From contig OZ024741.1 in NCBI GenBank assembly GCA_964016885.1, positions 85,622,001 through 85,686,000 of the forward strand: DNA of 64,000 nucleotides, in the 5' to 3' direction. A program made the position numbers and the translations under genes. This DNA comes from Eledone cirrhosa. Its lineage: Eukaryota. Below are positions 416 to 3,697 of the stretch, piece by piece. The first letter of the stretch is position 1, and every line of letters begins with the position of its first letter. The notes below the pieces were generated by a model that did no database searches, was not told the origin of the DNA, and saw nothing but the letters and a program-made list of their open reading frames with translations.

Positions 416-487
<72 letters not shown>

Positions 488-527
488 GATATTAAATAAA
501 TGGAAACTATATTTATAAAACCATATT

Positions 528-593
528 TATTTCATTATATATATTTCAGGGATATCATATTAAAAATATGTTATGCCTTCTTCAGACAAAATA
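528..593 (-). ncRNA. Type I hammerhead ribozyme, family A pLTR
   Basis: TATTTTGT-CTGAAGA-AGG..CCT-GAAA-T-ATAT-ATA^-ATGAAATA; 8-bp stem I and palindromic stem III. Confidence 0.85.
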
Positions 594-848
594 CAATATA
601 AACAGTCTTATAAATAGATAGATTTGACATACCTTTCAACTTCACCTTCCATTTAAAAAGTTGATTTGGTAGTGAAAAATATTAGGGACAGTTATAAAAA
701 GAAAGAAAGAAAAAACGAAGAAAAAGAAGAAATGCATGCAACTAAATAAAGAGAGATAGATATAGAGAGATAGATAGAGAGAAGAAATTCATGTAAAGAA
801 ACAGAGAGAGATATATAGAGAGAGGAAAAAACACAGAGGGAGATAGAT

Positions 849-882
<34 letters not shown>

Positions 883-1929
883 AAATATAGAGAGTTAGAT
901 ATAGATAGAGATAGAGAGAAAGAAAATAGGTAGTTGGGCACCAGTTGAATGACGTATCAATGATATATTTATTTATTTATTTATCTATTTAGCTCTAGTA
1001 TTAATGTAGAGAGAGATATATGTGGTTAGGAGAGAAAACAGCCGTTACATAGAGAGAAAAGAAAAATATCCAGACATAAACGAGGCAGATTTAAAACATT
1101 ATGTTTCATCAATGTAAAAATATCAATTCGTATAAATCAGGCATTATAATGTAAATATCAGTATTCATGAATGAGACACGTATCAATAATGTGTGAAAAA
1201 TAATGATCATATGTCTAGTTTAAAATTCCTAGGTTTATATCAGAGATGTGATAAAATAGAAGGTTATCCCAGATTCGATACTATAGACATCCATGTGAAT
1301 TTACGTGATCAACTCTGCAAATTCCTATTTCACACGAAAACATTCTCATTGTGCTATAAAAATTCTAGTATACATATATGTGTACATACACACAAATATA
1401 TATAGAGTCTACATTAATTTTAACAATACTATTCTTGTCTTTACTCTACATGATTATCGTTCAAGCATAAATAGAGAACAGATATCAATATATCAATGAA
1501 AATATCAGAAACAAAAAAATAAAAAAACAAAAAAATATTAAAAATAAAAATAAAAATATTAAAAATATTAAAAATAAAAATAAAACATAGTATGCCCCGC
1601 AAATCAACCACAGAGATCAACCCTTCAAAGTTAATTGACAAAATATTGCCAAGTTCGTTATAAGCATCAGAATCAAAAGCAAACAAAACCAAAATTATTT
1701 ACCAAATCCTGTCTAGCAGAAATCATTCCAAAAGTTTAGGATACCCATTTGATCTACAGATGGTCTTATATTTAATATAGAAGTTTATCTAGTGTAAAAT
1801 TTATTCGATATATTTGGAGCATCAGCTTTTAGGGTAGTTTAATTATTCATGAAGAATGTTTAAAATAAAAAAGAAATCGAAAGATTTATCGGCGAGTTTC
1901 ATAAATAATTATAAATCAAATTAAATATA

Positions 1930-3606
1930 CTACATTTTAAATTTATATTTATATTTAAAAGTTGAGTTCAATCTATGTCTGCAGCAACTGAATAAATTTG
2001 TCCGTAAATTAAGGGAATTTTTAGATTTTAGTATAAAGAATATCTCCTCCGCGCAGAGGTCACATGTCTCAGAGGATGAATTAAAAGGAATCCCTCTTGA
2101 GACTATATTCCAAGCCGTCGAATATCCAACGTTATCATGCCTAAGTTGCCAGAGTAAGCCTGATAGTGATGTTGAAGATTTTTTGCTTGGATCTGTGAAA
2201 GAATCCTTGTGGTTATTATAGCGAAGTTTAAATTCTGTCGAGGTGGAACCAACATAGTTAAAAGAATTTAAGTCCGTTTTAACATTACAGTTGTATATTA
2301 TATTTTTAACTAAGCAATTGTTATTTAACGGACATTTAGATCTATCTCTACAGTTACATTTGTTTACTTGGATATTATTTATGCTATTATTGGTATTTTG
2401 GCTAGGTTTTAAATTCCTATTATTTATTCTATTAATATTTTGTGCTAAATTTTTGGTGGATGAGTAGGTTAATTTTATAGTATGTCTATTGAAAATTGAG
2501 TGATACCTATGTGTTCTAGGGAAGCGATTATCAAGAGCATTAAAAAATAGTTTAGCGATGTGGGTTTTAATGTTTAGTGAGAAAGGGGGGGCAAACCATA
2601 TTATATTCCTAGTTCTATTTCTTTTTTGGCTTTTGGAATTATTGTAATGCTTTCTATTATAGTTGTTAAAGTTGTTGCCGTAATTAAAATTGTTGTTATT
2701 TTGGTTAGTTTGTCTATTATTATCTATGTACATAATTTTATCACTATATCCTGCTCTAGCTAACGCTTCATTGTAATACTGGGCTTTTTCGTCGAAAATC
2801 TTTTTATTAGATGAGATTCTAGAGATACATTTTTGAACAGAGTTTACTATAGTATTTTTAACAGATCTGGGGTGGTTAGAGTTAAAGCTGACATAGTTTA
2901 AGTTTTCATTCAACTTGTGAAATGGATAGTGAAGACATGTGTTGAGATTTAATGTTACATCTAGGAAATTGACTATTCTATGGTTATTCTCAATTTCTAT
3001 TTTTAGATTAAAGTAATTAAAAAATTGTGTAATTTGTTTTCTTTTTCTATTTAGTTCAGAGTTATTATTTTCAATAAGTAAAAGCATGTCATCTCTATAT
3101 AAACCTCCGGTAGCACCGGGTATTTTCCTATGCAGCGAATTGATTAAAAATAGGCCCACAAGGTCAGTTACCTGAGCTGAGTCGGATGATCCCATAGTAA
3201 TGTCGAAATTGTTATCTCTATCTGCTCTGGTCCATAGTTGGTCATTAAATTCTATCAATGTTTTCCTAGCCGATAATATAATGTGCATTTCATTGCTAGT
3301 TAGGTCTGTATGTTTGAATGCGTAATTTAGTGCCTTATTTAGTAGATTAGGGGTAATAGATGAATAATAGTTAGCAATATCTAGTTGAATAAACTTATTA
3401 TTATTGTTATATTTAATTTCTTTAAACCACTCAATAACCTCTCCAGTTCCCTTCCACAAGCTCAAGTTAGGTAAACAATTCAAGTTTTTAATTTGCTGTA
3501 TCACCCTGTCTAGAATGTTTTTGCTTAGTTTACCCAGGTCCGATTTTGATGGTGCAATCAATCTGACTGGCAGGTCATTTTCAAAATTTATTTTGTGATC
3601 TTTCAT
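1930..3606 (-). CDS. PLE reverse transcriptase + GIY-YIG endonuclease (open 558 aa from MKDHK; N-terminus probably truncated)
   Basis: RT motifs [42 protein letters not shown]; thumb SNHP; linker [15 protein letters not shown] (CxCx5Cx5C); [26 protein letters not shown]. The upstream part of the 630-aa track ORF is only microsatellite. Confidence 0.93.
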
Positions 3607-3697
3607 ATTGATCTTCGGTTTCCTGTGTATATATATATATATATATATACATATAGATATATATATATATACATATAGATCTTCGGTTTCATGTGTA

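What the first reader, a model, noticed from the sequence alone, without database searches (positions are those of the whole stretch)
487..3630. Hydra-type Penelope element with an intact RT/EN frame and a canonical hammerhead in its pLTR
Seen: CxCx5Cx5C linker, C-terminal GIY-YIG with CxxC, TA insertion, and an HHR 41 nt from the 3' end, conserved in all three arms (528-593, 47602-47667, 51619-51684). From memory (needs checking), the Hydra clade of PLEs was described as lacking hammerheads, with HDV-like ribozymes in a few members. If so, HHRs in two or three Hydra-type families here would be new. The 558-aa open frame suggests recent activity.
Basis: partly seen in the sequence, partly recalled or inferred. 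Interest (0 to 1): 0.75.

Follow-up and report, generated by a model that had tools for sequence, protein, structure and literature searches.

The report
Truncated Hydra Penelope, twin start hairpins
This is a cut-short copy of an abundant jumping gene whose group is already published as carrying the self-cutting RNA motif seen here; what is not in the papers searched is a small paired RNA hairpin shared across the group, which likely tells the copying enzyme where to start.

Summary
The element and its hammerhead (HHR) motif are real, but the claimed novelty is refuted. Craig et al. [quoted passage not shown] Every Hydra motif tested is met (RWK appears as RWR). The window copy is not intact: it lacks the first 176 of about 740 codons and has no 5' pLTR. 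The family is young and abundant (6,341 HHR matches; 5 of 30 fetched loci have complete ORFs). Its HHR is a minor variant (AUA site, 8-nt palindromic stem III); activity is untested. More interesting: copies end at two fixed sites 90 nt apart, each about 6 nt upstream of a bulged hairpin. 30 of 32 head-to-head insertions use one site of each kind. The hairpin occurs in 42 of 58 clusters of distant Hydra relatives, with covarying pairs. Likely both target ends prime reverse transcription on one RNA, positioned by the two hairpins. My searches did not find this in print, but this scan reported it earlier on other pieces of this genome and reported twin priming in other genomes.

The parts
487..3625 (-). 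5'-truncated Hydra-clade PLE copy, ending at start site 1 (short end), in (TA)n
1930..3606 (-). C-terminal 558 codons of the ~740-codon RT/GIY-YIG ORF; starts at an internal Met; first 176 codons missing
   Evidence: fold of a full-length copy matches TERT best
487..1929 (-). 1.44-kb 3' UTR rich in simple repeats
528..593 (-). Type I hammerhead motif: 8-bp stem I (2 G-U), core at 585-579 and 547-544, 31-nt stem II region, 8-nt palindromic stem III (544-537), predicted AUA cleavage between 536 and 535
3678..3690 (-). 13-nt duplicate of the truncated 5' end, set in TA-rich filler (templated junction insertion)
47561..50305 (-). Second copy (93%), more truncated, frameshifted at a G run, short end; HHR at 47602-47667
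50331..51813 (+). Inverted arm joined head-to-head to the second copy, long end; HHR at 51619-51684
51726..51813 (+). About 90-nt tail between start site 1 and start site 2; equals the start of the 5' UTR of full-length copies
51733..51755 (+). Bulged hairpin 1 (RCUC - stem-loop - 2-nt bulge - GAGY - RCU); this copy has one A-C mismatch; hairpin 2 is present only in read-through copies elsewhere

Best explanation
This is a 5'-truncated copy of a young, high-copy Hydra-clade Penelope-like retrotransposon with the clade's usual 3' hammerhead motif, which likely cleaves only weakly and as a dimer, and the family likely inserts when both ends of a cut (TA)n target prime reverse transcription at two fixed sites, each positioned by a conserved bulged hairpin. 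Shown: domain order and motifs, truncation, copy number, two discrete 3' ends 90 nt apart, a hairpin about 6 nt downstream of each, one end of each kind in 30 of 32 head-to-head pairs, and covariation of the hairpin across distant Hydra relatives. Inferred: the template is a read-through RNA from a tandem copy, uncut at the HHR; the GIY-YIG domain cuts both strands of (TA)n; protein bound at each hairpin (possibly a dimer, as modelled for Poseidon_Ac) starts cDNA about 6 nt upstream; the two cDNAs stop early and are joined 5' to 5' by microhomology. Solo copies such as 487-3625 would be cases where one cDNA survived. Confidence about 0.95 for identity and for the HHR being known, about 0.55 for the hairpin mechanism.
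For: Hydra definition met: RWR for RWK, DKT, CxCx5C, CxxC/CxH, no CCHH, (TA)n; by eye the RT matches the Hydra rows, not the Penelope/Poseidon, Nematis or Neptune rows, of Fig. S7. Model pLDDT 88.7; best PDB match TERT, E 2.7e-9. HHR found downstream of 35 of 78 distant homologues, 0 of 78 antisense. All first 100 listed HHR matches run on past the cleavage site. Ends: 46 short and 54 run-on of 100; 93 of 100 listed end at site 2, 7 run on; 30 of 32 pairs short+long, 0 short+short, p 1.2e-7. Hairpin at both sites in 4 families of this genome; 6 nt fits all 7 informative sites. 80 distinct hairpins in 42 of 58 clusters, 7 antisense; Watson-Crick pairs 77/80, 50/80, 40/69 against shuffle means 44, 23, 17. 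The short-ended arm reaches further 5' in 10 of 25 pairs, which DNA fold-back cannot make. Two internal RT starts and cleavage of both strands are shown in vitro for Poseidon_Ac (PMC11167929).
Against: No tree with labelled clade references (one search holds only homologues). No Pfam family for the ORF. No Rfam hammerhead match; the monomeric HHR fold is 6 kcal/mol above the MFE and the z-score is -0.3. No RNA evidence. Binding of the hairpin by the RT is untested. The shuffle control ignores relatedness; upper pair 4 is not significant (19/41, shuffle max 20); G-U versus A-C counts (16 vs 11) do not single out the RNA strand. The pair count uses the first 100 of 4,661 matches, all on one contig. 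20 hairpin hits also fell in 165 kb of ORF ranges and were not examined.
Confidence: 0.8

Rival explanations
1. One reading: HHRs are new for the Hydra clade, and this is an intact, active copy.
For: The HHR motif and the open 558-codon frame exist.
Against: PMC8557442 text and File S2 report HHRs in Hydra, including Octopus; the copy lacks 176 codons.
Confidence: 0.01
2. The inverted arm and tail come from self-priming or DNA fold-back followed by endonuclease resolution, as proposed in PMC3846280 and PMC8557442; the hairpin would then be an endonuclease recognition or nicking signal rather than an RT-positioning element.
For: 7 of 25 pairs have arms within 10 nt of each other with palindromic junctions; D. 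virilis Penelope EN needed the tail for cleavage (as cited in PMC11167929).
Against: In 10 of 25 pairs (7 by 40 nt or more), and in the window's second insertion, the tail-less arm extends further 5' than the tailed arm, so neither arm can be a DNA copy of the other. Hairpin 2 is never part of a terminal copy, so it has to act on the template.
Confidence: 0.2
3. Two RT start sites are real, but the hairpins serve another step (translation, packaging of the RNA with its protein, promoter or processing signal) and only lie near the starts.
For: Hairpins also sit at fairly fixed distances from the start codon (about -110 and -45) and from the HHR (33-57 nt) in distant relatives.
Against: Tail length follows hairpin spacing (90 nt here; 55-83 nt spacing elsewhere), and 7 informative breakpoints in distant loci lie 0-8 nt upstream of a hairpin.
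Confidence: 0.2
4. The HHR motif of this family is catalytically dead and is only carried along next to the priming sites.
For: Weak A-U palindrome (duplex -3.2 kcal/mol), two G-U pairs in stem I, competing fold; no listed copy ends at the cleavage site; HHR cleavage was dispensable for Poseidon_Ac insertion in vitro.
Against: Core, 8-bp stem I and self-complementary stem III are kept in three families at about 45-58% protein identity with different stem II and stem III sequences; AUA occurs in an active natural HHR (PMC1636495 abstract).
Confidence: 0.3

Closest known systems
Hydra clade of C-terminal EN+ Penelope-like elements, incl. Hydra-1_Obim of Octopus bimaculoides (Craig et al. 2021, PMC8557442; passages, sections 6, 11, 12, supplement parts 2, 52, 53, 57, 58 read)
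   Same: Single RT-EN ORF, DKT, CxCx5C linker, CxxC/CxH, no CCHH, (TA)n target, type I HHR near the 3' end.
   Different: A different family from Hydra-1_Obim by eye (not aligned by tool). Unit 3.88 kb against 'generally <3 kb'; RWR for RWK; HHR with U15.2-A16.2/AUA and longer stem II; tail about 90 nt. The paper has 0 occurrences of 'hairpin', although the motif is visible by eye in 5 of its 6 new consensus sequences.
Poseidon_Ac (Frangieh et al. 2024, PMC11167929; main text parts 1-2 of 4 read)
   Same: Two internal RT start sites define the tail; both target strands cut and extended; uncut RNA is the template; dimer predicted.
   Different: Other clade; starts lie inside the ORF in an AC-rich stem-loop; no duplicated hairpin and no pairing of one site per arm is reported in the parts read.
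Minimal dimer-type HHRs of metazoan PLEs (Cervera and de la Pena 2014, PMC4209133; parts 1-2 of 4 read)
   Same: Type I, palindromic helix III, extra base after position 9, long helix II, thousands of copies per genome, low predicted monomer activity.
   Different: Here an 8-nt palindrome with an AUA site, and at least 36,447 + 6,341 pattern matches against up to about 9,000 motifs reported there.

Membership tests
Hydra-clade PLE | Single ORF, RT followed by C-terminal GIY-YIG EN | tested here: met
   740-742-aa ORFs in 5 of 30 loci; RT fold closest to TERT; EN recognised by motif match to Fig. S7; no Pfam hit
Hydra-clade PLE | N-terminal RWK motif | tested here: met
   RWR in full-length copies; RWR also in 22 of 120 homologues, RWK in 54; absent from the truncated window copy
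Hydra-clade PLE | DKG modified to DKT | tested here: met
   SDKTNN in longer copies; absent from the window copy
Hydra-clade PLE | CxCx5C linker; CxxC and CxH around the EN E and N; no CCHH | tested here: met
   [16 protein letters not shown]; one Cys only between IIY and YVG
Hydra-clade PLE | Divergent RT4(B); no IFD | tested here: met
   By eye against Fig. S7 rows: [18 protein letters not shown] and GLYRDD follow the Hydra rows with similar spacing
Hydra-clade PLE | Insertion into (TA)n | tested here: met
Hydra-clade PLE | HHR near the 3' end | tested here: met
   variant at 15.2-16.2
Hydra-clade PLE | Generally shorter than 3 kb | tested here: not met
   Site-to-site unit 3,877 nt in one tandem copy; stated as a tendency only
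Hydra-clade PLE | Groups with Hydra references in an RT tree | tested here: inconclusive
   No labelled references were available; none of 8 short motifs of published Hydra proteins matched a fetched homologue; tree of homologues only
Type I hammerhead ribozyme | CUGANGA / GAAA / UH core with stems I and II | tested here: met
Type I hammerhead ribozyme | Match to an Rfam hammerhead model | tested here: not met
   (E<=10, 490-700)
Type I hammerhead ribozyme | Self-cleavage | not testable with these tools
   No assay; no raw RNA reads

The most novel reading that the evidence does not exclude
Hydra-clade PLEs carry a clade-wide, duplicated bulged RNA hairpin that positions two reverse transcriptases on one RNA, each starting about 6 nt upstream of its hairpin from one end of the cut target. 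This would explain both the tail and the head-to-head inverted ends of Penelope-like insertions, and give a telomerase-related enzyme a portable start signal.
Probability: 0.55. Interest if true: 0.72.

Novelty: new member of a known kind. Interest (0 to 1): 0.45.

Why it matters
The finding as posed is published. The side result bears on an open question that PMC8557442 names: how PLEs form their tail and tandem/inverted structures. A short conserved hairpin present twice, with a fixed offset to each insertion end and strict one-of-each use in inverted pairs, turns that into a direct experiment (break, restore or move the hairpin in the existing in vitro assay). The AUA-type HHRs, over 40,000 pattern matches in one genome and missed by Rfam, also show that HHR censuses of such genomes undercount.

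Tried and rejected
Rfam on the whole window gave only microRNA-like matches to TA repeats among the 150 of 237 rows shown, and no hammerhead at 490-700. The repeat finder was swamped by microsatellites. Pfam found nothing for the truncated or full ORF; PDB sequence searches found nothing meaningful. A clade tree was not possible without labelled references; one search is a quick tree of homologues only, and the script stopped with an error after printing it. Expression: RNA runs held only 0.05 of the words; the four runs laid are contigs of unknown kind from one study and show no starts or ends. Constrained HHR energies had an indexing error and are replaced; crashed. Priming by base-pairing to (TA)n was considered: family A shares 2 and 6 nt with the target at its ends, but family B only 2 nt at each site, so it is not general. 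Ends at the HHR cleavage site: 0 of the 100 listed. Lunse et al. 2017 was not held; its dimer result is taken from the review PMC6765202 (passages). Eight literature searches found no description of the hairpin; subscription papers, Repbase/Dfam reports, and the supplements of PMC11167929, PMC4209133 and the bioRxiv preprint were not seen.

Full report
Observation. [quoted passage not shown] The element runs from 3625 to 487 and sits in (TA)n. A type I hammerhead motif lies at 528-593 and recurs in a second, head-to-head insertion at 47602-47667 and 51619-51684, with one base different. The host is probably an octopod: 3.0 Gb, microsatellite-rich, best named homologue from Argonauta at 38%; this is inference.

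The copy is not intact. Of 30 loci fetched with the RT 5' region (the best-scoring of 3,264 candidates; one is the window itself), 5 have a complete 740-742-codon ORF. The window copy begins at codon 177, lacks the RWR and DKT motifs, and has no upstream pLTR. It differs from the five complete ORFs at 9-20 of 558 residues. The family is young and abundant: the 40 scored copies are 98-100% identical, and an exact pattern for the HHR 3' half has 6,341 matches against 0 for the control. One tandem copy gives a unit of 3,877 nt.

Clade. Craig et al. 2021 (PMC8557442, section 11) define Hydra by RWK, DKT, a divergent RT4, CxCx5C, CxxC/CxH, no CCHH and (TA)n targets. All are met, with RWR for RWK; RWR also occurs in 22 of 120 homologues. 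By eye the protein follows the Hydra rows of Fig. S7 and not the other clades. A model of a full-length copy (pLDDT 88.7) matches TERT best in the PDB. Pfam gives nothing. I could not build a tree with labelled references; the tree of homologues only shows three families of this genome as one group, SH-aLRT 98.

Novelty of the HHR claim. Refuted. The paper says canonical HHRs were readily detected in Hydra and are universally present there; Naiad and most Chlamys lack them; HDV occurs 0 times in the main text. File S2 lists HHRs for 25 of 27 Hydra families, including Hydra-1_Obim from Octopus bimaculoides. Independently, 35 of 78 metagenome loci encoding 30-38% identical homologues have an HHR within 900 nt downstream (31 of 55 with at least 200 nt), against 0 of 78 antisense and 2 of 1,560 shuffles.

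The HHR variant. The core is intact, but stem III is an 8-nt palindrome with U15.2-A16.2 and an AUA site. All 26 published Hydra rows and all 35 metagenome HHRs have C15.2-G16.2 (0 of 78 loci AUA-type). Two sister families at about 45-58% protein identity share the variant, with different palindromes and stem II and an 8-bp stem I; a pattern for these has 36,447 matches, control 0. The monomer fold is 6 kcal/mol above the MFE and Rfam does not detect it. That fits the weak, dimer-type PLE HHRs of PMC4209133; AUA is a natural but slower site (PMC1636495, abstract only). All 100 listed copies run past the cleavage site, so the template was uncut there, as for Poseidon_Ac. Activity is untested.

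Two ends and two hairpins. Copies end at two fixed points. Of the first 100 of 4,661 matches at site 1, 46 end and 54 run on; of the first 100 of 906 at site 2, 93 end and 7 run on into the 5' UTR. The tail between them aligned over 91 nt in all 32 fetched pairs, with one extra partial tail of 71 nt. Among 32 head-to-head pairs within 10 kb, 30 have one end of each kind, 2 are long+long, 0 short+short (p 1.2e-7); one exception is a tandem whose outer end is short, the other has the partial tail. Read-through copies show a bulged hairpin (RCUC, stem-loop, 2-nt bulge, GAGY, RCU) just downstream of each site in four families of this genome, closing pair A-U at site 1 and G-C at site 2. Allowing for TA ambiguity, an offset of 6 nt fits all 7 informative sites; the eighth lies in a TA run.

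The hairpin is clade-wide. It occurs in the flanks of 48 of 78 metagenome loci: 72 sense hits, 4 antisense, 0.75 per shuffle, and 20 unexamined hits in 165 kb of ORF ranges. Without a pairing filter there are 80 distinct copies in 42 of 58 clusters against 7 antisense; upper pairs 1-3 are Watson-Crick in 77/80, 50/80 and 40/69 (shuffle maxima 56, 35, 29), pair 4 is not significant, and relatedness is not controlled. 34 neighbouring pairs, duplicates included, are 55-83 nt apart. Of 14 breakpoint rows I kept 7, at 0-8 nt upstream of a hairpin; I dropped 4 point differences within continuing copies, 1 TA-repeat seed, 1 contig end and 1 chance match. By eye the motif is also in 5 of the 6 new Hydra consensus sequences of the paper, twice in Hydra-1_Ajap.

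Mechanism (inferred). A read-through RNA carries both hairpins. The endonuclease cuts both strands of (TA)n, each 3' end primes cDNA at one site, and the two truncated cDNAs are joined 5' to 5' through short microhomologies, sometimes with reiterated short units. In 25 pairs with resolved arms the tail-less arm reaches further 5' in 10, the tailed arm in 14, with 1 tie. Fold-back of one cDNA cannot give the first group, so both arms are likely RNA-templated. Against this, 7 of 25 pairs have near-equal palindromic arms, which fold-back would also give. Two internal starts, cutting of both strands and a predicted dimer are reported for Poseidon_Ac; earlier papers describe the one-sided tail and propose self-priming or endonuclease resolution (PMC3846280 passages).

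What is new. The tail, inverted arm and HHR are known. I did not find the duplicated hairpin or the one-of-each rule in eight searches; 'hairpin' occurs 0 times in PMC8557442, PMC3846280 and the 2026 retrozyme preprint (of the preprint I read part 1 of 5 and passages). I noted this reading before consulting the scan's notes, which hold the same hairpin from other pieces of this genome and twin priming from other genomes; those notes are not independent support.

Verdict. The score rests on the hairpin and end-pairing results, which make an open mechanistic question testable.

Noticed in passing
window 53576-54464 and 55808-56790: Head-to-head ends of a sister Hydra family with AUA-type HHRs (53641-53683 minus, 56589-56631 plus), one short and one long end; read-through copies elsewhere encode a Hydra ORF about 58% identical over the RT.
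   Followed up: yes
window 21000-21200: 3' end of a third family with an AUA-type HHR and a perfect GC-containing palindrome (21085-21131 minus); related loci encode a Hydra ORF at 45-47% identity.
   Followed up: yes
window 13456-13620, 24573-24780, 47291-47452: Short insertions of a fourth family carrying the bulged hairpin; the latter two are palindromic with one short and one long end; no HHR core seen in the fragments.
   Followed up: partly
window 20020-20790: Head-to-head pair with a type I HHR of another kind (GUA site, 10-nt palindrome, about 53-nt stem II), one arm with a tail; clade not determined.
   Followed up: no
window 14000-17800: Decayed, more GC-rich Hydra-type element (44-50% to the RT) with an inverted partial copy; fragments of another at about 58000-58300.
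   Followed up: partly
window 50303-50343 and 50907-50960: Short units (9 and 14 nt) reiterated 4-5 times at or near the inversion junction; similar reiterations seen by eye at about 6 of 28 junctions printed, as expected from slippage or templated end-joining.
   Followed up: partly
L095, L101, L107, L108, L109-L111, L113, L115: Arm lengths cluster near 185 and 130-145 nt from site 1, suggesting preferred RT stops; unexplained.
   Followed up: no
window 44029-44110: Isolated tail-like fragment with the same bulged hairpin in (TA)n.
   Followed up: no
window 32488-32949 and 41963-42358: Fragments that look like RTE-type and restriction-endonuclease-type non-LTR retrotransposon ORFs (labels recalled, not tested).
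   Followed up: no
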